From assembly GCA_049325535.1 (NCBI GenBank), contig JBMOKY010000001.1, positions 299,386-363,385 of the forward strand: a stretch of 64,000 nt of DNA, in the 5' to 3' direction. Below are positions 319 through 17,582 of the stretch, one piece after another (position 1 is the stretch's first letter; each line of letters opens with the position of its first letter). The translations under genes and the position numbers were made by a program. The notes under the pieces were generated by a model that did not search any database, was not told the origin of the DNA, and saw only the letters and a list, made by a program, of their open reading frames with translations. The stretch comes from Patescibacteria group bacterium (GTDB lineage: Bacteria > Patescibacteriota > Patescibacteriia > UBA10025 > JAHIVO01).

Positions 319-1275
319 ATGGCTATCGTCACAAAAATTTTGAATCAAGGAAGCATCCGCAACGGTTCATTTACCGATTTGGAGGGCGGATCTCCCGCCT
401 GGGCTGACCTCGAGCACCCGACGGACCAGGAATTGACGCAGGTGGCTCGATTCGTGGGCATCGAACCGCAGGAGCTTCGGGAATACCTAGATCAGACGCA
501 GCGCCCGCTGGTGCACAATGTCGAGCACTATTCCATGATTATCGTCGCCGTTCCGGTGATGGTCGGATCGTTTGTCCGCAGCGCTCCGCTGGTCATTTTT
601 GTTTCAAAGAATCGACATGATTTCATCACCCTGCATGAGCAGCCGGTCCTGGCACTGCAGCGCATCGCTGGTTTTCCTTCGGAACGGATGGCGACCATGT
701 TCAAAGGCGGCATGACCCACATCTTATTCACCATGCTGGATGAGATCGTGGACACCTATTTTTCCACCATCGACACGCTCAGCGACCAGATCGAAAAAAT
801 CGAACAGCACATGTTTGATTACCGGGAAAGCAAACAGACCATGCAGCAAACATTCCGTACCAAAAAAAGCCTGATCTTCCTGCACAAAGCGCTGGTGGCA
901 AATCGTGACGTGGTGGCCGGCATCGAAAAAGAATACGCCGCTTTTCTGGAAAAGAAGCAGTTATCCGATTTTCGGGAATTAAATGGTAACATCGTCCAGT
1001 TGATTGAAATGGTGACTACCTACCGCGATATCTTGACATCGTCAATCGAGATCCACCTGTCCACCATTTCCAATAACCTCAACGTGACCATGAAACGCGT
1101 CACGTCCTGGGGCGCATTGATTCTGGTACCTAGTTTGATCGCTGGTATTTTTGGCATGAATTTCCGGGATATCCCGTTTTTGTATTCGCACTGGGGGTTT
1201 TGGCTATCGTTGGTGATGATGGTTGTCTCTGTATTTGTGCTCGCCCGGTATTTCAAACGGAAAGACTGGTTCTGA
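319..1275 (+). CDS. corA: CorA family Mg2+/Co2+ transporter
   Basis: 318 aa; C-terminal two TM helices with GMN signature (GIFGMNF); cytoplasmic N-domain. Confidence 0.9.
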   Translation: MAIVTKILNQGSIRNGSFTDLEGGSPAWADLEHPTDQELTQVARFVGIEPQELREYLDQTQRPLVHNVEHYSMIIVAVPVMVGSFVRSAPLVIFVSKNRHDFITLHEQPVLALQRIAGFPSERMATMFKGGMTHILFTMLDEIVDTYFSTIDTLSDQIEKIEQHMFDYRESKQTMQQTFRTKKSLIFLHKALVANRDVVAGIEKEYAAFLEKKQLSDFRELNGNIVQLIEMVTTYRDILTSSIEIHLSTISNNLNVTMKRVTSWGALILVPSLIAGIFGMNFRDIPFLYSHWGFWLSLVMMVVSVFVLARYFKRKDWF

Positions 1276-1279
1276 TTCT

Positions 1280-4200
1280 ATGACCGAATTACATACAACA
1301 AATGCATGCCATTACTGTGGCTACCCGATTGAGATTGGGGAGCATGATTGGAGTTTGCATCCCACCGATGAGCGACCTGATCAGACGGATACCGCGGTGG
1401 ATGAGCGGGGTGGCCATGACGAGAATGCGGCAGAGGATCCATTCATCGCTCTGATATCTCAGAACAGGGATCGAGTGGCGCAGCTGGGTGCGTATAGCCT
1501 CGAGCTGTTTCGGAGAAAAAATCTCGATGCCGCCAGCCAGTTACTGACCGAGGGGTTGACCGAAACGTCGGACGACGGAACGATATCAGCCGAGCATCGG
1601 GGGGAGCGGATGCAGCAGGCGATACAGGTGCTGGAAGCGGAGCTGTCAGCTATTCGGACTTCAATCGCCGAACCGCTCCGTGAGGGGGTTGAGCAGATCG
1701 ATGATGGATACCACAAAAGTGAGCCGCTGGGAATCGAAAATTTGCATTATTCCCTGAGCGTTTTGATGCCGCAGCTGCAATCATTGGAATCACGCATGAC
1801 GGAGGTTCGTCGGTCGTTGACGTCTCTGACTGACGCGTCAGAACGGTACACCAGTCGGGTGCTGCAGGAATTGGGCATAAGTGATAAAAATGAGTTGGAT
1901 GAAAAAATTTGGGATCTGGAGGCACAAACATGGCAGCTGCGCGAATCAATGGTCGGGCAGTGGTTTCACTATTTTAAGCGGCGGGGGATAGAAAAGGAAA
2001 AGAAACAATTACGCGCGCTCCGGCAGCCTGGCTGGAGTGAATCCTTTGAGCAGGCAAAGAGTGCACATCGGAGTATGGCATATACTGAAGGTGATATCGC
2101 GCGAAAATTAGAAACATTATCGCACCGTGAAATATTTTCGTATTTCCGATCATTAGTCGAGGAGGTAAATGCTAACTATGAGGAATCGCACCGGGAATCG
2201 CAGGCACTGCCCGCTACTGCTATAGACAGTATCAATGACGATTACATCGATCGGGTCGTCCGGCCCGCCATCACCGTAGCGCAGCAGGAACATCCTCGGG
2301 AGTGGATATCGGTGCGTCCAGAAGACATAGAGCAATTTCTCGGCGTGCTGAAACAGAGTTTTGATCTTACGCGGGATACGCAGGAGGGAGGCGACGGGGA
2401 TGAGCCTGAGAAGCGAGAGCGCATCATGCAGGCGTTTCAGAATTTTCCCGAGCCACTTCAGAATCTCCGCTTCCCATTTACCCGTAAAACAGGCGAAGCA
2501 CGACCCAATGATCATTATGATGCAATCTATGAGTTTCTGCATGATCACATACCCCGCACCCGCCGCACCCAAGCGGTCAAAGGTTTGATTGACTCGTATA
2601 TCCAGCCATTTCAGGACCACGCGCGGTCACTGCCCGAGGGGTCGACTGAGAAATATTACCTCAAAAATCATATTGAATATTTTAATGGGTATTCTGGTTT
2701 GGAACGGCAATTGGCCGGGACAACCTATGAAAAAACGTTTATCGAGCATCTTGATGCGCAGCGCTGGAGCGCATTCGTCAATAATCGTGAGATGGTTGAG
2801 GCATTTGGCGCTGAACGAATAGATGAAGGGACGCAATTCGTTGAGCAGCTGTTTCGCAGTAAATATTTGAAAGATACCGGGTATTCATATTCGGACCACC
2901 AGCGTACGTGGGCGTCTCTGGTCGAGATGGGGAGGGTGGAGAGCGCGCCGTATGTGGTACTGGGAGCCTACGCTGATCTGAACGCCCGTGGAGGATGGAA
3001 GCGTCATCCGGGCCTGGCTGATGGGACGACGCGAATTATCGGGGGGTATATCTCCCGGTTTGACTCATTGGACGAATCCGGCAAAGCCATACCGGGCATG
3101 ACCGAGCTGTTTGATTTAATTCGCTCACATCCCGATTCTTTCGCCCAGGAGAGTTTCTACGATCGTGAACGGGGCGAAGAAGTGAAAAATCCTCTTTTCC
3201 ATGAAACTGAATCCGCACTGAGCACTATGATTGTGTATTATCTGGAAAATGGCACTGACGAAGAGCAGCTGCTTGCCATCCGCGCCCTGGAAAACGTCAG
3301 CTTATGTACCGATGAGATACGCGAGTGGCTGTGCCGGCACCTTGCCCTGGTGCATCGCGATGAATACAATACCATGCCCGGCTGCGCTCGTCGGTATGTG
3401 CTGGAAGCGGTCAACCGGGGTGACATCGCCATGGCCCAAGCCCTGATGGAGAATGCGACAGGGGATCAGGCAGCGTCGGTATTGAATGAAAGTTTATCGT
3501 CGGGTAACCTGGCCGGGGTGGCTAAGATTTTTGAGCTGGCGGATCGCAGCCAGGTGGAAGCGACTGATGCAGCGGCTCAGCCGAGCGGAGACTCGGGATT
3601 GAGCCCTGAGCTCCTGCAGGACCTCTCGCAAAAGATAAAGGCGTTTATCCAGGAACATCCCGCGGGATTTGTGGGGCAGGCGAACCGCGAACTGTATCGG
3701 GAGGTATTTGGCCGGGAGCCAATCGACGCTTTCCTCGATGCGCTGCCGACGGATACCGACGAAAAGCGCAACGCGTTTACGCATAATCAGTATGATCGAG
3801 CCACGGCTTTTGTGCAGCACATGACCGCCTCTCAGGACGGGCGCTTTTCACTGGATGCGGAGCAGTGGCGCTATCTGACGGAGTACGTCAAGCAATTCAA
3901 ACTGTCGAAGACACCGGCTCTGTATCATCATTTCGTCGGATTGCGCAAACACGTAGAAACAGGCCAGCCGCTGACAGAGGAACAGCTGCAGACGGGTATT
4001 GCCACCGAGGGGCAGCTGGTGGAGCGATTCCGGTCGATGCGCGAACGGACGTATGGTACGGATCCGATTTTGGAGACCGGTGATTTCACCAAATTTGACC
4101 TGGAATTATTAAGCGCGGTGAGCGGTAAAAGCACCCATCGTTTTGATACCGGGCGGCCGTCGATGGAACAAATCGTCGCTGATTTTCAGGAGGCGCGGGA

Positions 4201-5404
4201 CCACGGACGGATAGCTGAACTGCCGGCGGAATATAAGCCTTTTACCCTTTCCCTGCAAAACGTAGAAATACAAATGGAAGCCGAAAAAATTTCTCATGAT
4301 TTTGACCAACTGCAATCAGAAATACTCAATGTGCTGGATGGGCGGAGCACTATCGAAACGCTGCGGGAGCGGGTCCAGGGCAGCCTGCAGACCGAGATTG
4401 ACCAGATCGAACAGTCGTTGATGAAAAAATCGGATAATCAGTTCATCCGTTCACGTCTCGAACAGCTGCGCATTATCGGTCAGGCGGTACAAGCCGCTGG
4501 CGACGCCGATTCCCTGATGGGCGCGTTGCTGGAGATCGACCTGAGTACAGGGAAAAAACTGGATATTTTTCCGGCAATCCGTGAGACGATACTCAGGCGG
4601 CTGATTGATAAAAATTATTCAGCTTTGCAGGCGGATCAATTGGCGGCGACACTACGGGGTGGGCTATCGGTTGAAGGGGTACTGCGTATGCTGACACTGC
4701 ATGATGATTTTATCAAAGATCACGTCCTCAATGTCAACCGTAAAAATGAGGAACACTACTGGTCGGATCAGACATGGGATAAGATACAGCGCGGCAGAAA
4801 GAGCAGTAAGCATATCAATCTGAGCAAGGCATTTGAGCCGCACATCGGCGTCCTCCGGGAAGCGTCGCGGAACATGACCGTCATCGAGCAGGGGAGCGCC
4901 CAGAAAATTGACGTGATTCCGGATCGGGGCCTGATCGGGGAGTTGTCCGGGTATCTGGCTGATGTGTGCTATACCGCAGAGACGAAAATGCTCGAGCGGT
5001 TTCCCAATGTTGTCCCCTTCAAATTTACTGCCCGCGACGCAGAGACCGGCGAAGCGGAATTCATCGGATCGGTATTGATTTTTGAATTATCGGATGCTGC
5101 CGGTGACCCGGTGATGCTCGTACGCGGATTTGACGTCCCCCATGAAGAAAAATACGATATTCCGAAATTTATGGAAAAGTTCATGGATCAATTGCAGTCA
5201 GTCGCCCGCCAGCGAGGCATCAAGAAGATTGTGCTACCGGGGATGACGGGCGCCATGAGTAACTACGCCATGACCAATCGCCATGTGGAGCAAGCCTACA
5301 AGCAGGACAAGCAAGCAGTGGGCCTGTCAGAGAAATTCGCGTTCAACGGGTATGATATAACTGATAATGTGTACGTGGCGCGTGATCTGAATAATTCTGC
5401 TTGA
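1280..5404 (+). CDS. very large (1375 aa) hypothetical cytoplasmic protein, N-terminal CxxC...H zinc-ribbon-like segment, otherwise helical/acidic, no TM
   Basis: Uninterrupted 4.1 kb ORF; ATG at 1280 (MTELHTTNACHYCGYPIEIGEHDW) chosen over track start 1223 which overlaps corA; no recognisable catalytic motifs. Confidence 0.7.
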   Translation: MTELHTTNACHYCGYPIEIGEHDWSLHPTDERPDQTDTAVDERGGHDENAAEDPFIALISQNRDRVAQLGAYSLELFRRKNLDAASQLLTEGLTETSDDGTISAEHRGERMQQAIQVLEAELSAIRTSIAEPLREGVEQIDDGYHKSEPLGIENLHYSLSVLMPQLQSLESRMTEVRRSLTSLTDASERYTSRVLQELGISDKNELDEKIWDLEAQTWQLRESMVGQWFHYFKRRGIEKEKKQLRALRQPGWSESFEQAKSAHRSMAYTEGDIARKLETLSHREIFSYFRSLVEEVNANYEESHRESQALPATAIDSINDDYIDRVVRPAITVAQQEHPREWISVRPEDIEQFLGVLKQSFDLTRDTQEGGDGDEPEKRERIMQAFQNFPEPLQNLRFPFTRKTGEARPNDHYDAIYEFLHDHIPRTRRTQAVKGLIDSYIQPFQDHARSLPEGSTEKYYLKNHIEYFNGYSGLERQLAGTTYEKTFIEHLDAQRWSAFVNNREMVEAFGAERIDEGTQFVEQLFRSKYLKDTGYSYSDHQRTWASLVEMGRVESAPYVVLGAYADLNARGGWKRHPGLADGTTRIIGGYISRFDSLDESGKAIPGMTELFDLIRSHPDSFAQESFYDRERGEEVKNPLFHETESALSTMIVYYLENGTDEEQLLAIRALENVSLCTDEIREWLCRHLALVHRDEYNTMPGCARRYVLEAVNRGDIAMAQALMENATGDQAASVLNESLSSGNLAGVAKIFELADRSQVEATDAAAQPSGDSGLSPELLQDLSQKIKAFIQEHPAGFVGQANRELYREVFGREPIDAFLDALPTDTDEKRNAFTHNQYDRATAFVQHMTASQDGRFSLDAEQWRYLTEYVKQFKLSKTPALYHHFVGLRKHVETGQPLTEEQLQTGIATEGQLVERFRSMRERTYGTDPILETGDFTKFDLELLSAVSGKSTHRFDTGRPSMEQIVADFQEARDHGRIAELPAEYKPFTLSLQNVEIQMEAEKISHDFDQLQSEILNVLDGRSTIETLRERVQGSLQTEIDQIEQSLMKKSDNQFIRSRLEQLRIIGQAVQAAGDADSLMGALLEIDLSTGKKLDIFPAIRETILRRLIDKNYSALQADQLAATLRGGLSVEGVLRMLTLHDDFIKDHVLNVNRKNEEHYWSDQTWDKIQRGRKSSKHINLSKAFEPHIGVLREASRNMTVIEQGSAQKIDVIPDRGLIGELSGYLADVCYTAETKMLERFPNVVPFKFTARDAETGEAEFIGSVLIFELSDAAGDPVMLVRGFDVPHEEKYDIPKFMEKFMDQLQSVARQRGIKKIVLPGMTGAMSNYAMTNRHVEQAYKQDKQAVGLSEKFAFNGYDITDNVYVARDLNNSA

Positions 5405-7606: not shown

Positions 7607-8383
7607 CTATTTTGAGTAGGAAATGAATTCCCACCCTTCTTTCGGTTTGGTGTATGCCGAAGTCGCCGAGTCCGGCAAGCGGAAACTGGCTCCACGGACG
7701 GGGCCGTAGCCGGGCGCCAGCCATATCTCGTAATTGCGAGTGCCAATATGTCCCGGCACGTTCATGAAAGGTATCCGGATGATGAACACCTCAGGGTAGG
7801 TGGTGCCACGGACGGTGACCCCTGTCAGACGCTGACATGTGGCATTTAGCGTGTCGGCCACCGCGCGTCGGCACTGGTCGATGTCCGTTTCGGCGTGGCC
7901 GATGGTCTGCCACTGGGCGCCATGAGCGAGCGGATAGGGAGCTACTCGGCCTGGCTGCGTCAGGGGCATGTCGAGGCCGCAGTATTGCCCGCCGTGCCAG
8001 TACAGGCCGGTCTGGTCGGCGCTGAAGTACAGCGTAAAGGTATAGGCCGGATCGGTATAGTGGCGCGCGATAGGAGCGGCTGAGACAGGATAGACCGTCG
8101 CGTCGTGGTAGGAGATCGGATTTCCGATGACCGGCGCAAATGTCCAGGCATCGACCGTATTGTTCAGCAGGAACTGACGCAGGCTGTCAGCGATGTAATT
8201 GACATAGCCGGCCTGGATGGTCCGTCCGGGAACCAGTCCGAAATATTCGGCTGGAGTGGAAGGGTCGGGCGGGTTGTCGTTTCCGGTGGGACCATCACCG
8301 TTACCGCCCGAACTGCAGGCGTAGAAGATGATCCCGGTGGTCAGCAGCGTCACCATCATCAGGGTCAGGTATACGCGTTTCAT
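7607..8383 (-). CDS. secreted/lipoprotein-like hypothetical protein
   Basis: Start MKRVYLTLMMVTLLTTGIIFYACSSGG (signal peptide plus Cys); track start 8422 less likely. Confidence 0.6.
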   Translation of the reverse strand: MKRVYLTLMMVTLLTTGIIFYACSSGGNGDGPTGNDNPPDPSTPAEYFGLVPGRTIQAGYVNYIADSLRQFLLNNTVDAWTFAPVIGNPISYHDATVYPVSAAPIARHYTDPAYTFTLYFSADQTGLYWHGGQYCGLDMPLTQPGRVAPYPLAHGAQWQTIGHAETDIDQCRRAVADTLNATCQRLTGVTVRGTTYPEVFIIRIPFMNVPGHIGTRNYEIWLAPGYGPVRGASFRLPDSATSAYTKPKEGWEFISYSK

Positions 8384-8588
8384 AGAGCCTCCTGGTATGG
8401 GTTTTTGGTCAAGAGCCGTCACCTGTGGCTTCTGGTAATTGTATAATTTTTTTGATGTCGAAGGGCTATGTAGTAATCGATAATCCTATCGTATGCCCCT
8501 ATAGCTGTCAATCTGAGAATGCGAGTCAACAAACTTATGGTTTTTTGCTATACTGACGCCATATCATCAATTTACCGTTTATTGACCT

Positions 8589-9131
8589 ATGCCATCTGTA
8601 CCGAATCAAAATCCTGTCCGCCGCGCACAAATTCAGCTGTGGCTTGGTCTGGGTGGAATTGTATTTATCGGCCTCGTGGTGGCGGTTTATTTCGTATTTG
8701 TCCGGGAGGCGACTGCGCCGACTACCACGGATACGGCAAATATAAATGCCAGTTTGACGGACGTAGAGGGGGACATTTTTCTGACTGATGCTACGCCGTC
8801 TGCTGGCAGCACCGTGACTTCCCTAGAATCGGTTTCAATAACTTATTCTGCGCCGATCAATCCGACGACGGTCACTATGGATACGTTTTATGTATTGCAG
8901 GGAGTAGATGAAAAAAGCCCAGGTTCCATTTCATTGAGTGACGATGGGAAAACAGCCACCTACCAACTGACTGATGCGATAGTAGCATCTGAGGACGGTT
9001 CAGTCACCGCTCTGACGGTGGTAGTGGATACGACGGGTATGCAGGGCACCGACGGTACCCCCGTGTATGTACCGGGTAGTACGGCCCAATGGAATGTGTA
9101 CGTGGCTAATCAACCCTACCTCGGGGATTAA
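8589..9131 (+). CDS. membrane-anchored protein with bacterial Ig-like (Big/SbsA-like) domain
   Basis: N-terminal TM; TVTSLESVSITYSAPINPTTV...TYQLTD pattern typical of Ig-like surface domains; extended -10 TGcTATACT upstream at about 8558. Confidence 0.6.
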   Translation: MPSVPNQNPVRRAQIQLWLGLGGIVFIGLVVAVYFVFVREATAPTTTDTANINASLTDVEGDIFLTDATPSAGSTVTSLESVSITYSAPINPTTVTMDTFYVLQGVDEKSPGSISLSDDGKTATYQLTDAIVASEDGSVTALTVVVDTTGMQGTDGTPVYVPGSTAQWNVYVANQPYLGD

Positions 9132-9144
9132 CATCTCAAACACT

Positions 9145-10107
9145 ATGGAGAATCTATCATCGAAACGCATGATATCTCCTCCGCCTCATACCCATCACGT
9201 CATCCTATGGCTCGTCTTGGTATTTATCACGGTAGTAGCGGTTGCGGCAGTTGCCTATGCGTATATCTTCCAGCCGACGGCGGAGGAGATGGACATCGCT
9301 GAATCGAGCATCGTCTGCGGTGACGGGATATGTACCGCCACTGAGCAGGAATGTATTCCGACTTTGTGCGGAGATGGTTCACCGAGCTGCCCTCAGTGCA
9401 CGAAATATTATTGCCCGGCTGATTGTGCCTATCCGGGATTTAATGACCAAAACGTGAATACCTCCACCACTGACGCGGAGGAATGGCTGACCTATACGAA
9501 TGATGAAATAGGCGTCAGTTTTGAATATCCCTCGTCATGGCAACCGGTGAACGAATCGCGCATCGAAGAAAGCGAATCTGACCAGGGCAGTCGGGTGCGT
9601 GTGGATTTTAGCGGTTCGCAAGGGGACAGCGGGTTTGACACCACTTTCCAGCTGCTCTATACCACTCCGGATTTTTCATCGGGTAGCGAACCGTGGCTGG
9701 GGGATCTGCTGGCGTCGCAGTATGACCAACACGGCATGTACGGTATCTGCACTCCCGCTGCTGATGATGAGCTGTATCTGTACCTCAAAGACGTACATCA
9801 TTGCGCTATCCGTGAGTGGGAGGGGCGCGCTACCGCCGAGTTTTTCACCCAGATCAACGGATTGGACGAAGCTGAAATAAGCTCGTTTGTGAAGGTGTTT
9901 GCATTTGAAACCGGAAACGAAACATACCCCCTGGCGCAGCTGGTAATGTATTTGCCGGAAGCAAATCCGGACAATGTGCCGGTAGCGGATACGGAAGCGG
10001 TCGAGGACATCTATGATGGCCTGCGCCTGGGCAGCTTGAATGCCGAAACCAACAAGCGAATTGCGGATTTCAGCATGATTCGTGAAAGTCTAACGGCAAT
10101 ACAATGA
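9145..10107 (+). CDS. membrane-anchored Cys-rich extracellular protein, paralog of 10104..11453
   Basis: ATG 9145 (MENLSSKR), TM helix, 12-Cys module (CGDGICTATEQECIPTLCGDGSPSCPQCTKYYCPADC) then TDAEEWLTYTNDEIGVSFEYPSSW motif; track start 9067 overlaps upstream gene. Confidence 0.6.
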   Translation: MENLSSKRMISPPPHTHHVILWLVLVFITVVAVAAVAYAYIFQPTAEEMDIAESSIVCGDGICTATEQECIPTLCGDGSPSCPQCTKYYCPADCAYPGFNDQNVNTSTTDAEEWLTYTNDEIGVSFEYPSSWQPVNESRIEESESDQGSRVRVDFSGSQGDSGFDTTFQLLYTTPDFSSGSEPWLGDLLASQYDQHGMYGICTPAADDELYLYLKDVHHCAIREWEGRATAEFFTQINGLDEAEISSFVKVFAFETGNETYPLAQLVMYLPEANPDNVPVADTEAVEDIYDGLRLGSLNAETNKRIADFSMIRESLTAIQ

Positions 10108-11453
10108 CACGTACCAACTACATACCGCTCACCGTAGTCACCGCTATCGCACTGGTGGCTGTTTTGATGCTGATGATCGCGGCGGTGTATGAACAGCACG
10201 CCTCTGATCCCGAGTCTGTTTCCAGTACGGCATCCAGCACCAAAGCCGCTTCAATATCTTGCGAGGAAATCAGCAGCCAGGCTGCGTGCGACGCTAGACC
10301 TGATTGCTATGCGGTGTATGATGCATGTCCATGCTACACGGCAAACAGCGCAGCGGGGAAATGCGGAGGAGAGCTGGATCAGTGCGAAGCCTGTGAGGAT
10401 GGCCGATTTACCCGATGCGCTGCAGGAGCGTGTGATACCATTCAGGGTTATTCAAACACCAACACGTATGCCGAAAGTACGGCGGTGGATACGTCGGATT
10501 GGCTGACGTATGAGAACGAGGAGTATCAGTACTCAATTCAATATCCCGCTACCTATAAGATTATTGAAAACGCAGATTCAAGCATTTCAATAGCGCCAAT
10601 AGATGGCAGCTACCCATATCCGCATATTTCTGTGGATACTACCCCATTGGAAGAAAAAATTACTGAGATAGTAGACGAATTTATTCGTAGGGAGACAATT
10701 TATGCTGGTACAATAGAGGGCGTAGCGGTGATTGAAAATATGGCCATCGGTGGTGAGGCGATCAATTATCTCTTTGAGCACAATCAATATACTTACCTTA
10801 TTCGAGGTGGAAATACTGAAGACAATCGCGCAATGTTTAACACGTTTAGCTTTCTTAATGACACCTCCGACTGGCTGACGTATGAGAATGAGGAGTATGG
10901 GTTTAGCTTTCAGTATCCGATTGAATGGGGCGCTGTCCAAGTTTCTGAAAAAGATTATAGGAATGACGAACGAAGTTATTATGAAGGGCGGGGAGTCAGT
11001 ATTACATTTGCAAACAACACAAAACCAAACATACGATTATCATCAAGTGATTATCGTGATTTTGCTTCACTCACTTCCTATAATGGTGGGGAGGATTTAG
11101 CGAAAGTGTGCACTTCACCTGGTATCGTCAACGACTTTTCTTATTGTATAAATAAAACGGTTGCAGGCCAAAGCACTTTTGATAGACTGCGCTTTGATGC
11201 GCCTGAATGCTCACCAATGTTTATTCGAGAAAGCTGGCTCAATATCGATTTGCCGGTTTATAAAAGCATTATCATCAGTTCAATATTATTTACCGGTGGG
11301 GGATGGGATTGTACCAGCGATGATGCTGCTGAATGGGACAGAATAACCAGTTCTGAATTACAAAGACTTATCAACAGAAATGACCTCACTCAGGATGAGA
11401 TGGCATTACTTCAGGGAATGGATATGGTCATTGAGACATTTCGCTTTCTGTAG
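10104..11453 (+). CDS. membrane-anchored Cys-rich extracellular protein with two TSDWLTYENEEY-x-S-x-QYP repeats
   Basis: ATGA overlap with upstream gene; TM; Cys module; motif repeated at aa about 130 and about 255. Confidence 0.65.
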   Translation: MTRTNYIPLTVVTAIALVAVLMLMIAAVYEQHASDPESVSSTASSTKAASISCEEISSQAACDARPDCYAVYDACPCYTANSAAGKCGGELDQCEACEDGRFTRCAAGACDTIQGYSNTNTYAESTAVDTSDWLTYENEEYQYSIQYPATYKIIENADSSISIAPIDGSYPYPHISVDTTPLEEKITEIVDEFIRRETIYAGTIEGVAVIENMAIGGEAINYLFEHNQYTYLIRGGNTEDNRAMFNTFSFLNDTSDWLTYENEEYGFSFQYPIEWGAVQVSEKDYRNDERSYYEGRGVSITFANNTKPNIRLSSSDYRDFASLTSYNGGEDLAKVCTSPGIVNDFSYCINKTVAGQSTFDRLRFDAPECSPMFIRESWLNIDLPVYKSIIISSILFTGGGWDCTSDDAAEWDRITSSELQRLINRNDLTQDEMALLQGMDMVIETFRFL

Positions 11454-11476
11454 CGGGTAATTGGCAAAAATACGCA

Positions 11477-11503
11477 TTAGCACTCTTGACGTGAGAGTGC
11501 TAA
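11477..11503 (+). promoter_or_regulatory. CIRCE operator (HrcA binding site) overlapping hrcA promoter
   Basis: TTAGCACTC-N9-GAGTGCTAA perfect inverted repeat; TTGACG inside spacer and TTATAAT downstream. Confidence 0.85.
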
Positions 11504-11530
11504 TTGATTTATAATACACTTGCGTAGCAT

Positions 11531-14009: not shown

Positions 14010-15923
14010 ATGTCAAAAATACTCGGTATTGATCTCGGAACAACCAACTCCTGCATGGCTATCATCGAGGGTGGTGAGCCGAAAGTTCTCGAAAACAAAG
14101 AAGGTAATCGCACCACGCCCTCGGTGGTCGCTATCTCCAAAACCGGCGAACGCCTGGTTGGGCAAGTAGCTAAGCGCCAAGCCGTTACCAATCACCAGAA
14201 CACCGTTTTTTCCGTGAAGCGTCTGATCGGTCGCCACTGGAATGACGAAGAAGTACAGCATGATGTGAAAACCATGCCGTACTCTATTGAGCAAGCAGGG
14301 GAAGGTGTCAAAGTAAAAATGGTAGATAAACTCTACACACCGCAAGAAGTCTCAGCCATGATTCTTCAGAAATTGAAAGCTGATGCAGAGGCAAAGCTGG
14401 GTGAAAAAATCGAAGAAGCAGTGATTACCGTTCCTGCCTATTTTGACGACTCACAGCGCCAGGCCACCAAGGACGCAGGTGAAATCGCCGGCCTTAAAGT
14501 AAAACGTATTATCAATGAACCAACCGCCGCCGCACTGGCCTACGGATTTGATAAGAAAAAGAATCAGCAAGTAGCAGTCTACGACCTGGGTGGTGGTACG
14601 TTTGATATTTCCATCTTGGACATTTCCGAAGACACGGTCGAAGTGAAATCAACCAATGGTGACACCCACTTGGGTGGTGACGACTTTGACAAGCGGATCA
14701 TCGACTGGTTGGTTGAGGAATTCAACAAAGACCAAGGTATCAATCTCGGCAATGACCAAATGGCACTCCAGCGCCTGAAGGAAGCCGCAGAAAAAGCCAA
14801 GATTGAATTATCCACCACCAGTGAAACTGAAATCAATCTGCCCTTCATTACCACGGATGCTTCTGGTCCGAAACACATGAATCTCAAACTCACTCGCGCC
14901 AAACTTGAGACGCTCGTGGCTGACCTCATCGAAAAAACTATTGAACCAGTCAAGAAAGCACTGGCTGACGCTAAACTGGAAACCAAAGATATCGAAGAGG
15001 TGATCATGGTCGGTGGTATGACCCGTATGCCCAAAGTGCTGGAAACCGTAGAACAATTCTTCGGCAAAAAACCCCACATCGGTGTGAATCCTGACGAAGT
15101 GGTCGCTGTCGGCGCTGCAGTACAAGCTGGCGTGCTCCAAGGTGATGTAAAAGATGTGCTCCTGCTCGACGTGACTCCGTTGACTCTCGGTATCGAAACC
15201 CTCGGTGGCGTCTCCACTCCACTCATCGAACGCAACACCACCATCCCGACGACCAAATCGCAAGTATTCTCCACCGCAGCTGACAATCAGACTTCAGTAG
15301 AGGTCCACGTATTGCAGGGCGAACGTCCCATGGCCGGGGATAATAAAACGCTGGGACGATTTATCCTCTCTGGCATTCCGCCATCACCACGTGGCGTACC
15401 GCAGGTGGAAGTATCATTCGACATTGATGCCAACGGTATTCTCAACGTGAAGGCAAAAGACAAAGCATCTGGCAAAGAGCAATCCATCACTATTACGGCT
15501 TCATCAGGCCTATCCAAGGAAGAAGTCGAGAAAATGAAACAGGATGCCCAGGCGCATGCAGCCGAGGATACCAAGAAGAAAGAATTGATTGACCAGCGCA
15601 ATACTGCAGAAACCCTCGTCTACACCGCGGAAAAAGCACTGAAGGATGCGGGTGACAAAGTCAAAGATGATGTGAAGAAAGAAATTGAAGAAAAGATCAA
15701 AGTGGTCAAAGACGTGAAAGATAAGGATGATGTGGCAGCTATCAAGAAAGCAGTGGAAGATCTGAATCAAACGGTGCAGAAGATTGGTCAAGCGATGTAT
15801 GGTCAGCAACAGAAGGCTCCAGAAGGCGCAAAAGGCACGGAAGGCGATAAGGCTCAAGGTGCAAAAGGCTCTGCTCCAGTCGATGCAGAGTACGAGGATG
15901 TCAAAAAGGAAGACAAGAAGTAA
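14010..15923 (+). CDS. dnaK: molecular chaperone DnaK (Hsp70)
   Basis: Full-length Hsp70: [24 protein letters not shown]-like motifs. Confidence 0.97.
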
Positions 15924-15959
15924 TTAACAACCGCGCCCTCGGCTAACCACCGGGGGCGT

Positions 15960-16571
15960 TTGAGGGAAAATAATATGACATTTCAAGACGATATTAATGG
16001 AGCTATTCGAGAGATAGAGGGGCGAGGTTCGCAAGATTTATTTTTGAAAATTATTGAAGCTCGTAGTTTTTTGGCTGTTTCTTTTGAGCAGTATACTCAA
16101 AATAAAAACCAGAGCGTTCAATTATTTACCGATTCGTATTACACTTATCATTATTTTGCTTATGTAAATTTCTTTTATTCCTTGAAGGAAAGAACTGCTC
16201 AATTCATTAATAAATATTTGCGACTAGGCAATCCAATAGATGACGTAAGTTATCATAGAATTAGTCATAATGAGGAGGCACAAAAGGTTTTTAAAAAAAT
16301 ATTTGATTTCTTTGCTGATCCAGAATTTAAGTCAATTTCATCTGCAAGAAAAACGATGGTTCATCGTAGTCAAGATTATATTTCAGCAATACAGATAAAG
16401 GATTCAGCTAGCGCTCCTCAGCAAACTCCTCAGGTAAAGTTAGATAAAGATATTCTAGATAAGCCGAATGAAAAACTTAGTATTATTTTGATAAAAATAG
16501 TTGAATGTATTATTGATGAATTAAAGGAAGCTCAAAGTGAAAAGGGTGCAATTGATAAAGGTTCAGCCTGA
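15960..16571 (+). CDS. AT-rich orphan gene, possible HEPN-like (R-x4-H) protein
   Basis: GC visibly far below flanks; 203 aa helical; SARKTMVHRSQ contains R-x4-H; own hairpin terminator downstream. Confidence 0.55.
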   Translation: MRENNMTFQDDINGAIREIEGRGSQDLFLKIIEARSFLAVSFEQYTQNKNQSVQLFTDSYYTYHYFAYVNFFYSLKERTAQFINKYLRLGNPIDDVSYHRISHNEEAQKVFKKIFDFFADPEFKSISSARKTMVHRSQDYISAIQIKDSASAPQQTPQVKLDKDILDKPNEKLSIILIKIVECIIDELKEAQSEKGAIDKGSA

Positions 16572-16628
16572 ATTATGCAGAGATGAACAATTTTACGTCC
16601 TAATTCATCATAAGGGTGCGGTAGTGGG

Positions 16629-16695
16629 GGCCCGCCTCGGCTCGCGCCCGCTTCGACGAATCGAGGCGAGTCGACGCGAGGCGGGTTTTTGGTAC
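16629..16695 (+). terminator. extended GC hairpin followed by GGGTTTTTGG
   Basis: cccgcctcg...cgaggcggg 9-bp outer stem plus inner pairing, then T-run. Confidence 0.5.
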
Positions 16696-16702
16696 GAAAA
16701 AT

Positions 16703-16798
16703 GCTTGTCATCGCGAGCTCCGTCTGCGGAGCGTGGCGATCTCCGTGACTATCCAACCGAGATTGCCGCGTCGCCTACGGCTCCTCGCAATGACAAGC
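16703..16798 (+). repeat. long hairpin element: inverted GCTTGTCATCGCGAG / CTCGCAATGACAAGC arms around about 66-nt loop
   Basis: 14/15 complementary arms; arms share GATGACAAG core with repeats at 13914, 18033, 18076, 18168. Confidence 0.5.
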
Positions 16799-16817
16799 GC
16801 TGTGGTATACTAATCGC

Positions 16818-17582
16818 ATGGAAGTGTATCAGGACATAATTAAATACATTAAAACTGCAGGTCAGAGGCTGAAAGAGCGCTCGGGGCATATTGAGGATAT
16901 TGGCATTCGAAAAAGGAATTTGACGGAAGAGGACATTCGGATTGAGCGGGAACTGAAAGAAATCATTACCAAAAATGATCCAACACATCAGGTGTACGCG
17001 GAAGAGGAGAACGCCGATTTTTTTGATGCCGAGGAAGTGTGGGTGATTGACCCGATCAGTGGCACGCATTTGTTTATCCAGGGCAAACCACATTACGCTA
17101 TCGTGGTGTCGCATCTCCATAAGGGCATTGTGCAGTTTGCCGCGGTGTACGATACATCTGCTGATGAATTATTTACTGCACAGCGAGGCAGTGGGGCATT
17201 CTTAAATGGCACGAAAATAATGGTTCAGCCTGCAAGCCCTGATAGACTGCGCGTGGTATTTAATAAATCAAATAAGTGGCCAGATGAAGTATTGGTGCAG
17301 AAAGTTTTGGATGGTTTACAGACGTACGAAGTGTTTCGTTTAGAAGCCTCGCATGCGTTGGGGGATTGCTACATAGCTTGTGGGCGATATAACGGTGTTA
17401 TCGTTTTGGCAAAAGATAGTTTTCCATCGTTTGCTGGAAGTCTCATGGTTCAGGAAGCTGGTGGAGAATACACCAATCAAAAAGGTGAGTCAGATATTAA
17501 ACCAGATAATCGGATATTTGTGGGTGGAGATCACGGCACACATTTTCGACTATTGGGGATGGTGCAAGAGATGCTGAAATAA
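16818..17582 (+). CDS. inositol monophosphatase family protein
   Basis: EEENADFFDAEEVWVIDPISGT (WxIDPIDGT motif). Confidence 0.85.
   Translation: MEVYQDIIKYIKTAGQRLKERSGHIEDIGIRKRNLTEEDIRIERELKEIITKNDPTHQVYAEEENADFFDAEEVWVIDPISGTHLFIQGKPHYAIVVSHLHKGIVQFAAVYDTSADELFTAQRGSGAFLNGTKIMVQPASPDRLRVVFNKSNKWPDEVLVQKVLDGLQTYEVFRLEASHALGDCYIACGRYNGVIVLAKDSFPSFAGSLMVQEAGGEYTNQKGESDIKPDNRIFVGGDHGTHFRLLGMVQEMLK

What the first reader, a model, noticed from the sequence alone, without database searches (positions are those of the whole stretch)
8589..11453. Three-gene surface-protein operon: Ig-like protein plus tandem Cys-rich paralogs with a WLTYENEEY repeat
Three consecutive membrane-anchored extracellular proteins are tightly coupled by an ATGA overlap at 10104. 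The second and third share a 10-12 Cys module immediately after the TM anchor and a 25-aa beta-rich motif (TSDWLTYENEEYxxSxQYP). The motif occurs once in gene 2 and twice in gene 3. Tandem duplication with motif expansion is typical of fast-evolving cell-surface or adhesion proteins, possibly host-attachment proteins in an episymbiont. A lipoprotein gene (7607..8383) is divergently adjacent.
Basis: seen in the sequence. Interest (0 to 1): 0.5.

Follow-up and report, generated by a model that had tools for sequence, protein, structure and literature searches.

The report
Membrane-anchored PsbP-like surface protein island
Three adjacent genes of an uncultivated ultrasmall (Patescibacteria/CPR) bacterium encode membrane-anchored outer-face proteins; the repeated "WLTYENEEY" motif is the opening hairpin of a widespread PsbP-like domain, and one such domain differs completely between near-identical strains.

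Summary
Genes 8589-9131, 9145-10107 (not 9067) and 10104-11453 are tightly packed and each product starts with a membrane anchor.

- **Gene 1:** passes Pfam Big_5 (Ig-like).
- **Genes 2 and 3:** they are not tandem paralogs. Only the hairpin aligns, and their Cys modules (8 and 10 Cys) have different spacing.
- **Gene 3:** its two domains belong to different subfamilies, so this is a fusion and not a duplication.
- **The locus:** the position is fixed (Big_5 gene ... hrcA) but the content varies across five lineages.
- **Strain swap:** in a strain whose flanks are about 99.5% identical, gene 3's first domain body (10525-10858) is replaced by an unrelated one, with junctions in the motif-coding DNA. 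The gene 3 domains also have low GC.

Function is inferred: variable, non-enzymatic binding modules on the cell surface. I rate it a new member of a known kind, of moderate-low interest.

The parts
8526..8554 (+). Promoter-like site (TCAACA-17-TATACT, TG-extended) upstream of gene 1
   Evidence: Consensus scan only, 9 of 12 matches. The number of such sites in the region is not above the shuffles. This is weak evidence.
8589..9131 (+). Gene 1: 180-aa signal-anchored protein. TM is about aa 17-38 (nt 8637-8702). The Ig-like Big_5 domain is aa 65-152 (nt 8781-9044). No Cys.
   Evidence: ORF and hydropathy. Pfam Big_5 E 3.5e-5, 24.9 bits against a 23.6 cut-off. Colinear orthologs head the same locus in L001, L006 and L008/9 at 47-52% identity.
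9145..10107 (+). Gene 2: 320-aa signal-anchored protein. His-rich N-terminus plus TM (aa 19-41, nt 9199-9267). 8-Cys module CGDGIC...CPADC (aa 58-94, nt 9316-9426). Hairpin motif (aa 108-133, nt 9466-9543). Then an orphan body of about 190 aa.
   Evidence: The start at 9145 matches gene calls on L004 and L007. The N-terminus plus Cys module (aa 15-108) is conserved in the second gene of L001, L006 and L009 at 35-48%. The body is found only in P0017 (98%) and as the first domain of P0014 (54%). PsbP_2 scores 23.2 bits on aa 105-140 only. hhalign to the family profile aligns 31 columns only. The AF2 model is poor, pLDDT 38.
10104..11453 (+). Gene 3: 449-aa signal-anchored protein. TM aa 7-29 (nt 10122-10190). 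10-Cys module aa 53-110 (nt 10260-10433). N/T-rich linker. PsbP-like domain D1 aa 129-252. PsbP-like domain D2 aa 253-449.
   Evidence: The start overlaps the gene 2 stop (ATGA).
10488..10859 (+). Gene 3 domain D1. Hairpin motif DTSDWLTYENEEYQYSIQYP (nt 10488-10547), body, and closing strand MFNTFSFLN.
   Evidence: A family HMM built without close relatives matches aa 129-252 end to end, 50.8 bits. The AF2 model has strands 134-138 and 143-147 at pLDDT about 82, and an overall beta-beta/beta-beta-beta/alpha/beta-beta-beta/alpha order. The D1-type body occurs in 7 proteins, e.g. P0005 at 58%. GC is 0.403 and GC3 0.39, against 0.513 for the window.
10525..10858 (+). Strain-variable cassette. This is the D1 body, replaced in strain contigs L004/L005 by an unrelated 424-nt PsbP_2-like body.
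   Evidence: blastn of window against L004 is colinear except here. The flanking gene parts are 99.5-99.9% identical. The junctions were read directly: divergence starts inside motif 1 after ...TATGA, and identity resumes at the first codon of motif 2. The window allele is also in L007. The other allele was assembled in two runs.
10860..11450 (+). Gene 3 domain D2. Hairpin motif DTSDWLTYENEEYGFSFQYP (nt 10860-10919), a larger body with 4 Cys (C336, C348, C369, C403), two C-terminal helices and the closing strand IETFRFL.
   Evidence: AF2 pLDDT is about 70-87. The family HMM scores 49.8 bits. PsbP_2 and PsbP match the first about 30 aa. The D2-type body is found in at least 25 proteins, nearly always as the last domain. 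It is 77% identical to the L001 gene that directly precedes hrcA. GC is 0.414.
7607..8383 (-). Divergent putative lipoprotein gene (258 aa, MKRVYLTLMMVTLLTTGIIFYAC...). It is a neighbour and not shown to belong to the unit.
   Evidence: ORF. No Pfam or NCBIfam match. It is present in the near-identical strains L004 and L007 but absent from the same locus in L001, L006 and L008.
11476..11515 (+). Downstream boundary of the unit. A CIRCE-type inverted repeat TTAGCACTC-N9-GAGTGCTAA overlaps the hrcA promoter-like site TTGACG-18-TATAAT.
   Evidence: Sequence read and scan (11 of 12 promoter matches). It suggests hrcA has its own regulated promoter, so genes 1-3 would form a separate transcription unit (inference).

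Best explanation
**Layout.** Genes 1-3 form a compact cluster that is probably one operon. This is inferred from a 13-nt gap, a 4-nt overlap and a separate promoter for hrcA. The organism is a Kerfeldbacteria-like Patescibacterium (CPR).

**Topology.** Each product has a short, positively charged N-terminus and one hydrophobic helix. The bulk of each protein should therefore sit on the outer face of the cytoplasmic membrane. This topology is inferred.

**Composition.**
- Gene 1 carries an Ig-like Big_5 domain.
- Genes 2 and 3 are modular: anchor, then a Cys-rich module with an even number of Cys, then an Asn/Thr-rich linker, then alpha/beta domains. The two Cys modules are of unrelated kinds and are presumably disulfide-bonded.

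**The motif.** The 'WLTYENEEY' motif is the beta1-turn-beta2 hairpin that opens each PsbP/Mog1p-like domain. It marks a very large, mostly uncharacterised family of anchored proteins that lies on the fringe of Pfam PsbP_2. In that family each domain of about 150 aa starts with DTSDW(K/L)TYxNEEYGFxFKYPxxW and ends with (I)LSTFKF. Proteins carry 1-4 such domains.

**Gene 3.** It carries two domains of different subfamilies, which indicates fusion rather than duplication.

**Gene 2.** It carries the hairpin followed by an orphan body whose fold is not established.

**The locus.** The stretch between the Big_5 gene and hrcA is a fixed-position, variable-content island. It changes by exchange of whole modules. 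One whole-domain replacement between near-identical strains has both junctions in the motif-coding DNA.

**Mechanism I commit to (inferred).** The PsbP-like domains are non-enzymatic binding or scaffold modules displayed at the cell surface. Their specificity is diversified by cassette exchange, most likely in response to the partner or host cell surface, phage, or other environmental ligands, rather than for a conserved housekeeping job.
For: **Shown**
- Gene layout, anchors and motif copies.
- Big_5 above the Pfam cut-off.
- The motif maps to the N-terminal part of PsbP_2 (profile positions 35-70 of 184) and of PsbP (4-34 of 155).
- 14 of 15 aligned sequences (gene 3's product plus 14 relatives) hit PsbP_2, best E 2.3e-12.
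- In the AF2 model of g3 (mean pLDDT 65.9, domains about 70-87) the motif forms two strands.
- Foldseek hits: TplEi 6e-5, PsbP 2.7e-4.
- 1071 50%-identity clusters match g3 at E<=1e-3.
- In the 161 proteins in hand there are 0-4 motif copies per protein (78 have two), the median spacing is 150 aa, and 152 have an N-terminal hydrophobic anchor.
- A family HMM covers D1 end to end and about two-thirds of D2.
- The locus 'Big_5 gene ... hrcA-grpE-hsp20' holds 2-6 differing genes in L001, L006 and L008-10. In L013 a g3-like gene again sits directly before hrcA.
- Module mosaicism.
- The cassette replacement lies in flanks that are 99.5-99.9% identical.
- GC steps from about 0.56 to about 0.40 at motif 1, and 10500-11453 is in the lowest 1.4% of same-size windows.
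- A 47-nt tract is identical between window motif 2 and the L006 motif, although unrelated sequence lies on both sides. That is 14 of 15 identical codons against a background of 0.50, P=5e-4.

**Inferred**
- Outside topology, disulfides, operon status, binding function and diversifying selection.
Against: - Neither window protein reaches the PsbP_2 gathering score (23.2 and 19.5 against 27 bits). The Pfam matches cover only the hairpin.
- Gene 2's body has no detectable similarity to the family beyond the hairpin, and its model is unusable (pLDDT 38).
- The g3 model is only moderately confident, and the fold-search outputs do not say which domain was aligned.
- There are no expression, localisation or ligand data.
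- The cassette swap is one event seen in metagenome assemblies. No donor was found.
- Excess DNA-level conservation of the motif is significant in only one of eight comparisons.
- Low GC of these domains is also seen in relatives. It may therefore reflect a family property rather than recent import.
- Known PsbP-fold envelope proteins (DcrB, LpqN) have housekeeping-type roles, which argues for the rival reading.
Confidence: 0.6

Rival explanations
1. First reader's model. Genes 2 and 3 are tandem paralogs, made by duplication with expansion of a repeat motif, and act as host-attachment adhesins of an episymbiont.
For: - The genes are adjacent and share an architecture (anchor, Cys module, motif-led domain).
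- The organism is CPR.
- The locus evolves fast and varies between strains.
Against: - g2 and g3 align only over the hairpin.
- The Cys modules have different spacing and different relatives.
- D1 and D2 are each closer to single-domain proteins of other genomes than to each other.
- The two motif copies differ at synonymous sites.
- The motif is a domain signature present in more than 1000 clusters, not a locus-specific repeat.
- The adhesin function is untested.
Confidence: 0.12
2. Housekeeping envelope scaffolds. The PsbP-like domains act like DcrB, LpqN or Mtc28, as membrane-tethered accessory proteins for lipid, lipoprotein or cell-wall biogenesis. The variability is neutral drift.
For: - Neighbouring genes are envelope-related: LPG_synthase_TM, a C39-like peptidase, and in relatives an ABC transporter.
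- The locus position is conserved across lineages.
- Another family member (P0008) sits beside the mraZ-dcw cell-wall cluster.
Against: - A whole domain is replaced by an unrelated one between strains that are otherwise about 99.5% identical.
- Gene number at the locus varies from 2 to 6 in the lineages where the whole island is seen.
- g2's body has only two known relatives.
- 5 of the 11 codon differences in g2 between strains are non-synonymous, against 4 of 76 in dnaK.
Confidence: 0.2
3. Immunity-type proteins. These would be tethered PsbP-fold inhibitors of incoming lytic or lipolytic toxins, like T6SS immunity proteins Tli4/TplEi and Tsi3, held in a variable immunity island.
For: - The best Foldseek hit is TplEi (E 6e-5, 354 aligned columns). 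From my own knowledge it has two PsbP-like domains.
- Variable multi-gene arrays are typical of immunity islands (own knowledge).
Against: - No toxin or effector gene is recognisable next to the genes (Pfam on neighbours).
- TM-scores to TplEi are low (0.20/0.29, rmsd 21 A).
- The fold is shared with many non-immunity proteins.
- The family has more than 1000 clusters, with up to 4 domains per protein.
Confidence: 0.05
4. The strain-level 'cassette swap' is an assembly artefact. The assembler crossed between two genes at the repeated motif sequence, so there is no real allelic replacement.
For: - The motif-coding DNA is repeated within the gene and between genes.
- One Logan contig (L007) breaks exactly inside motif 2, which shows that the assembly graph branches there.
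- No donor copy of the alternative cassette was found elsewhere.
Against: - The alternative allele was assembled identically in two sequencing runs (L004 and L005). The window allele is in an NCBI MAG and in L007.
- Both alleles keep an intact reading frame and a complete domain bounded by the family's N- and C-terminal motifs.
- A chimera would need two precise crossings.
- At a repeat the Logan contig L007 broke rather than joined.
Confidence: 0.08

Closest known systems
Pfam PF18933 PsbP_2 (PsbP-like protein) and PF01789 PsbP; the Mog1p/PsbP-like fold
   Same: - The motif aligns to the N-terminal strands of both profiles.
- 14 of the 15 aligned sequences hit PsbP_2.
   Different: - The window proteins score below the PsbP_2 cut-off.
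- They are membrane-anchored, multi-module proteins (Cys module, linker, one or two domains) in a non-photosynthetic CPR bacterium.
- They score 11.8 bits against a 60-bit cut-off for NCBIfam PSII_PsbP.
- D2 carries extra C-terminal helices and 4 Cys.
Envelope-associated PsbP-fold proteins: DcrB (6e8a), LpqN (6e5d), Mtc28 (4pws), Apa (5zxa), TiME (7cu8)
   Different: - There is no sequence similarity (6-11% identity; PDB sequence searches were empty).
- Those proteins are single-domain and conserved within their lineages.
- Here the domains are shuffled and strain-variable, and the anchor is a TM helix rather than a lipid (DcrB) or a cleaved signal peptide.
T6SS immunity proteins Tli4/TplEi (5h7y, 4r1d) and Tsi3 (4luq)
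   Different: - There is no effector partner nearby.
- The overall TM-score is low.
- From my own knowledge, CPR bacteria are not known to have a T6SS.
Pfam PF13205 Big_5 bacterial Ig-like domain (gene 1)
   Same: It scores above the gathering threshold over 87 of 105 profile positions.
   Different: Here it is a small single-domain protein on a TM anchor, rather than part of a large multi-Ig surface protein.
Cassette-type variable surface proteins, e.g. Neisseria pilE/pilS and Borrelia vlsE. This is an analogy from my own knowledge and was not tested.
   Same: A variable segment is replaced as a block, with junctions in short conserved sequences that flank it.
   Different: - No silent cassette array, no recombination-promoting element and no within-strain switching have been shown.
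- Only one replacement event was seen between strains.

Membership tests
Pfam PsbP_2 (PF18933) | Whole-protein score at or above the gathering cut-off (27 bits) | tested here: not met
   g2 scores 23.2 bits and g3 19.5 bits, and only about 30 aa are matched. 14 of the 15 aligned sequences match at E<=0.01, best 2.3e-12. P0002, the allelic form of g3, has a precomputed PF18933 hit.
Mog1p/PsbP-like fold (superfamily level) | Alpha-beta-alpha sandwich preceded by an N-terminal beta-hairpin, superposable on PsbP or CyanoP | tested here: met
Mog1p/PsbP-like fold (superfamily level) | The same fold for gene 2's domain | tested here: inconclusive
   The AF2 model is at pLDDT 38 with only 3 sequences. 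The family HMM and hhalign align only the hairpin, 31-45 residues.
Photosystem II PsbP (functional family) | Equivalog-level similarity to PSII PsbP | tested here: not met
   NCBIfam NF040946 PSII_PsbP scores 11.8 bits against a 60-bit cut-off. From my own knowledge, Patescibacteria are non-photosynthetic.
CPR-wide 'DTSDWKTYxNEEYGFxFKYP ... ILSTFKF' anchored-domain family (unnamed; defined here) | N-terminal anchor, and domain units of about 150 aa bracketed by the two motifs | tested here: met
   g3 D1 matches the family HMM end to end, including the C-terminal motif. D2 matches over aa 252-376 and ends with ETFRFL. For spacing and anchor statistics. g2 has a diverged N-motif and no clear C-motif.
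Pfam Big_5 (PF13205), gene 1 | Score at or above the gathering cut-off (23.6 bits) | tested here: met
   24.9 bits, E 3.5e-5, aa 65-152. The orthologs in L001, L006 and L008 also carry Big_5 hits.
Type IV pilin-like (class III signal) proteins | Gly at -1 of the prepilin peptidase site, then a hydrophobic stretch with Glu at +5 | tested here: not met
   g3 has ...RTN-YIPLT (no Gly) and g2 has none. About 18% of family members and several island genes in relatives have [KRQ]G[FY] before the helix, but the ones I read lack Glu+5.
T6SS immunity proteins (Tli4/Tsi3 type) | Genetic linkage to a cognate effector | tested here: not met
   Pfam on the flanking genes finds CorA, a C39-like peptidase, LPG_synthase_TM, HrcA and Hsp70, and no lipase or muramidase effector.
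Bacterial lipoprotein (neighbour ORF 7607-8383) | Lipobox with Cys at the end of a signal peptide, and Lgt/Lsp present in the genome | tested here: inconclusive
   The sequence IIFYAC fits a relaxed lipobox. I did not look for Lgt or Lsp, and only 64 kb of the genome is visible.
Operon (genes 1-3) | Co-transcription | not testable with these tools
   Only spacing (13-nt gap, 4-nt overlap), the absence of a convincing internal terminator, and a separate CIRCE/promoter for hrcA.

The most novel reading that the evidence does not exclude
The very strongly conserved hairpin-coding sequence, together with the preceding ...STFKF strand, doubles as a recombination junction. This would let Kerfeldbacteria-like CPR bacteria swap whole PsbP-like ectodomain cassettes between genes, strains and even lineages. 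The cassettes would include low-GC ones imported from other Patescibacteria. The result would be a modular surface-variation system that sets partner or phage specificity.
Probability: 0.2. Interest if true: 0.6.

Novelty: new member of a known kind. Interest (0 to 1): 0.3.

Why it matters
How ultrasmall CPR bacteria recognise and hold on to partner cells is largely unknown, and most of their surface proteins are unannotated 'hypotheticals'.

This locus gives that dark matter a concrete reading. A very large family of anchored proteins is built from PsbP-fold modules, and it can be recognised by one 20-residue signature.

The locus also shows, in natural near-identical strains, that a whole module can be exchanged at that signature. 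If the exchange proves general, these genes would be candidates for strain-level specificity determinants, and the motif would be a practical handle for cataloguing them. Taken alone, the three genes are ordinary members of that family.

Tried and rejected
1. **PDB sequence search** with g2 and g3 gave only noise, E >= 0.65.
2. **Cys modules against Pfam** at E<=10 gave no family for either module, or for the second Cys domain of the L001 gene. AF2 confidence in the g3 Cys module is too low (pLDDT 27-58) to predict disulfides.
3. **AF2 of gene 2** with 3 sequences gave pLDDT 38, which is unusable, so no fold search was run on it.
4. **The afdb50 fold library** was not available.
5. **Donor search for the alternative D1' cassette.** The word-indexed protein search gave two weak hits and did not return P0002 itself, so the negative result is weak. 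tblastn and blastp on everything fetched found no close copy.
6. **Exact DNA-motif scans.** There were 2 hits among species-representative genomes (one mislabelled or foreign contig, one Patescibacteria) and none in the JGI metagenome contigs. The DNA form of the motif is therefore lineage-restricted.
7. **General test for synonymous-site conservation of the motif.** It was significant in 1 of 8 comparisons only, so I reject a universal DNA-level constraint.
8. **Pilin-like signal.** Rejected for g2 and g3.
9. **Rfam.** No RNA family in or near the locus.
10. **Literature.** Searches for PF18933/PsbP_2, for PsbP together with CPR terms, and for Kerfeldbacteria turned up no paper describing this family.
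11. **Heat-shock regulon membership.** Rejected, because hrcA has its own CIRCE and promoter.


Full report
**1. What is there**

The window region holds three + strand ORFs: 8589-9131 (180 aa), 9067/9145-10107 and 10104-11453 (449 aa).

- The stop of gene 2 and the start of gene 3 overlap as ATGA at 10104-10107.
- Gene 2 most likely starts at ATG 9145, 13 nt after the gene 1 stop. Independent gene calls on related contigs give a 320-aa product, and the orthologous N-termini match that start.
- Each protein has a short basic N-terminus, one strongly hydrophobic segment of about 20 residues, and an acidic stretch after it. This fits an N-in/C-out signal anchor. The topology is inferred.
- A weak promoter-like site lies at 8526-8554.
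- The next gene, hrcA, has its own strong promoter-like site (TTGACG-18-TATAAT, 11486-11515). This overlaps a perfect CIRCE-type inverted repeat at 11476-11504.
- Genes 1-3 are therefore a plausible separate operon, but that is inference.

**2. The organism**

Gene 3's product is identical to NCBI 'hypothetical protein ACOYUK_01595, Patescibacteria group bacterium', on a 1.15-Mb contig. The closest named relatives are Candidatus Kerfeldbacteria.

**3. The motif**

Within the 64-kb window a loose pattern for the motif hits only three places, all in genes 2 and 3.

The two gene 3 copies share DTSDWLTYENEEY exactly. They are only 76% identical over 59 nt, with synonymous differences (GAT ACG TCG GAT against GAC ACC TCC GAC). 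The conservation is therefore at protein level.

Pfam places the motif at the start of PsbP_2 (profile positions 35-70 of 184) and of PsbP (4-34 of 155). The scores fall below the cut-off: 23.2 and 19.5 against 27 bits. Of the 15 aligned sequences (gene 3's product plus 14 relatives), 14 hit PsbP_2, best E 2.3e-12.

The AlphaFold model of gene 3 was built from 15 sequences. Mean pLDDT is 65.9, and the two domains are at about 70-87.

- It turns the motif into two strands, 134-138/143-147 and 258-262/267-271.
- Each hairpin is followed by a beta-sheet/helix pattern.
- Foldseek agrees, with TplEi at 6e-5 and PsbP at 2.7e-4.

So the motif is the opening beta-hairpin of a PsbP/Mog1p-like domain.

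**4. How common it is**

An exhaustive HMMER scan of 1.84 billion cluster representatives finds 1071 clusters at E<=1e-3, but only 9 at E<=1e-30. In the 161 proteins in hand:

| Feature | Result |
|---|---|
| Motif copies per protein (0 / 1 / 2 / 3 / 4) | 9 / 42 / 78 / 28 / 4 proteins |
| Median spacing between copies | 150 aa |
| Proteins with an N-terminal hydrophobic anchor | 152 of 161 |
| Consensus | DTSDWKTYRNEEYGFEFKYPxDW |

I built an HMM from 204 domain segments, leaving out close relatives.

- It matches gene 3 D1 end to end (aa 129-252, 50.8 bits).
- It reveals a second family signature, the closing strand (I)LSTFKF, which is MFNTFSFLN in D1 and IETFRFL in D2.
- It matches D2 over aa 252-376 at 49.8 bits.
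- It matches gene 2 only over the hairpin. hhalign confirms this, with 31 aligned columns.

Two copies in gene 3 is thus the ordinary state of this family.

**5. Genes 2 and 3 are not tandem paralogs**

- BLASTP aligns only the motif region.
- The Cys modules differ in number and spacing: 8 Cys with C4C6C4C6C2C4C3C, against 10 Cys with C8C5C6C1C9C6C2C7C4C.
- They also differ in relatives. Gene 2's module recurs in the second gene of the same locus in L001, L006 and L009 (35-48% over aa 15-108). Gene 3's module recurs in P0144, P0007 and L013.
- Neither module hits Pfam.
- Gene 3's D1 body is 58% identical to the single domain of P0005. D2 is 75-77% identical to the single domain of P0003. D1 and D2 share only the motif.
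- D2-type bodies occur in at least 25 proteins and are nearly always the last domain.
- Gene 2's body is otherwise known only from P0017 (98%) and as the first domain of P0014. There it follows a different N-terminal module and precedes a canonical motif-led domain.

This is module shuffling, not duplication.

**6. A fixed-position, variable-content island**

| Genome | Gene order at the locus |
|---|---|
| Window, and strain contigs L004/L005/L007 | C39-like peptidase, LPG_synthase_TM, (lipoprotein, minus strand), Big_5, g2, g3, hrcA-grpE-hsp20 ... dnaK |
| L001 (Kerfeldbacteria GCA_016214565) | Big_5, then five genes, then hrcA |
| L006 | Big_5, then two genes plus a Y1 transposase, then hrcA |
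| L008-10 | Big_5, then six genes including a response regulator, then hrcA |
| L013 (HrcA 56% identical, GC 0.34) | the gene directly before hrcA is again anchor + g3-type Cys module + DTSDWLTYENEEYG + domain |

Identity to the window across L001/L006/L009 is HrcA 92/79/76% and Big_5 protein 52/47/47%. Genes 2 and 3 align only in parts.

**7. A whole-domain replacement between near-identical strains**

blastn of the window against L004 is colinear except at window 10525-10858 (334 nt), which faces L004 8422-8845 (424 nt). There nothing aligns.

- The flanks are almost identical: gene 3 N-part 2 differences in 420 nt, D2 1 in 594 nt, hrcA 1 in 708 nt, gene 1 3 in 543 nt, all of them synonymous.
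- Reading the junctions, divergence begins inside motif 1 after ...GAT TGG CTG ACG TAT GA. Identity resumes at the first codon of motif 2.
- The replacing segment encodes a complete, different PsbP_2-like body. It ends with the family's closing strand (ETIQFTS), and P0002 has a Pfam PF18933 hit.
- Each allele was assembled at least twice: the window allele in the NCBI MAG and L007, the other in L004 and L005.
- L007's contig ends exactly inside motif 2. This suggests the assembly graph branches there.
- An assembly chimera cannot be excluded without reads, but I consider it unlikely.

**8. Composition and DNA-level hints**

- GC falls from about 0.56 to about 0.40 at about 10500, which is motif 1, and stays low to the end of gene 3.

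| Segment | GC | GC3 |
|---|---|---|
| Gene 3 N-terminal part | 0.549 | 0.55 |
| D1 | 0.403 | 0.39 |
| D2 | 0.414 | 0.38 |
| L004 cassette | 0.375 | 0.25 |
| Whole window | 0.513 | not computed |

(All.)

- The segment 10500-11453 lies in the lowest 1.4% of equal-size windows.
- Motif-led domains at this locus in L001, L006 and L009 are likewise 6-8 points below their loci. This fits import from low-GC Patescibacteria such as L013, but it could also be a family property.
- Window motif 2 and the L006 motif share an identical 47-nt tract, although both flanks are unrelated. That is 14 of 15 identical codons against a 0.50 background in hrcA, P=5e-4. The other comparisons are not significant.
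- The L001 motif looks like a hybrid of the window's copy 1 (5' half) and copy 2 (3' half). This would fit a deletion or insertion of D1 by recombination between motif copies, but it is only suggestive.

**9. Function**

Nothing here is enzymatic by any profile. The nearest structures are binding or scaffold proteins of envelopes and lumens: PsbP/CyanoP, DcrB, LpqN, Mtc28, Apa, Tli4, Tsi3 and Eag. In the viral library the nearest are phage 'lipoproteins'.

I combine four observations: the outside-facing anchor, the even Cys counts, the strain-level cassette exchange, and a high share of non-synonymous change in gene 2 (5 of 11 codon differences, against 4 of 76 in dnaK). From these the most likely role is a variable, non-enzymatic binding module at the cell surface.

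The rivals are a housekeeping envelope role (DcrB/LpqN-like) and a toxin-immunity role (Tli4-like). I give them lower weight.

**10. Verdict**

The proteins are new members of a known fold family, within a large, uncharacterised, CPR-rich family. I found no literature on this family.

The most interesting element is the domain replacement at motif-coded junctions. It deserves a population-level test.

Noticed in passing
window 11476-11515: A perfect CIRCE-type inverted repeat TTAGCACTC-N9-GAGTGCTAA overlaps a near-consensus promoter (TTGACG-18-TATAAT) directly upstream of hrcA-grpE-sHSP ... dnaK. This is a classic HrcA autoregulated heat-shock operon in a CPR genome.
   Followed up: partly
window 15320-17142 (gene 15960-16571): This is the only other strongly low-GC stretch of the window (minimum 0.365). 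It holds a HEPN-domain gene (Pfam HEPN_Cthe2314, E 1.3e-7) just after dnaK, and may be an acquired defence or toxin island. It also lies where the alignment between the window and strain contig L004 stops (15803).
   Followed up: no
window 1223-5404: A giant ORF (about 1360-1393 aa) with no Pfam hit and no hydrophobic segment. Its N-terminus has a CxxC...H zinc-ribbon-like motif that also appears in a 509-aa protein of L006. It is only 91% identical in nt between strains whose neighbouring genes are 99% or more identical.
   Followed up: partly
L001 3241/6367/8001; L009 4832/6545/8001; about 18% of the 161 family proteins: Many family members start M-x(2-4)-[KRQ]-G-[FY]-x-x-[IV] before the hydrophobic helix. 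This looks like a prepilin-peptidase site without Glu+5. Gene 3 has Asn in place of the Gly (MTRTNYIPL). Whether this is a processing signal in CPR is unexplained.
   Followed up: partly
L007 7716-7761: The Logan contig of a third sample ends exactly inside gene 3's second motif (…GAG TAT GGG TTT A). This suggests that another sequence in that sample shares the 46-nt motif tract and then diverges.
   Followed up: no
L006 9428-9991; L008 4439-4813: The variable island holds an IS200/IS605-type Y1 transposase gene in one relative. It sits between the last island gene and hrcA. In another relative the island holds a stand-alone response-regulator gene.
   Followed up: no
gene 2, aa 194-199 (window about 9724-9741): Three of the five amino-acid differences between the window and strain L004 cluster in YDQHGMYGIC against YEQNGMSGIC, next to Cys202. 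The other two are S56G and T173S.
   Followed up: no
P0144 (359 aa, 34 Cys); L013 803-2086: These proteins combine a gene 1-like N-terminal anchor with a gene 3-type Cys module and further Cys domains. The anchors and Cys modules are therefore shuffled as well, not only the PsbP-like domains.
   Followed up: partly
model m89c5cb20d72d against the BFVD viral library: The best viral structural matches are phage proteins annotated 'Lipoprotein' or 'Host cell surface-exposed lipoprotein' (A0A6J5RR90, E 8e-6). This hints that phages encode the same fold for the host surface.
   Followed up: no
window 7607-8383 (minus strand): The divergent putative lipoprotein has no family match. It is present only in the near-identical strains and is missing from the same locus in L001, L006 and L008. 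In L001 and L008 an ABC transporter pair and an AbrB/MazE-like gene lie upstream of the Big_5 gene, which the window lacks.
   Followed up: partly
(search tool behaviour): The word-indexed protein search with the L004 D1' cassette did not return P0002, the protein it was cut from. Negative results of that search for short queries should not be trusted.
   Followed up: no
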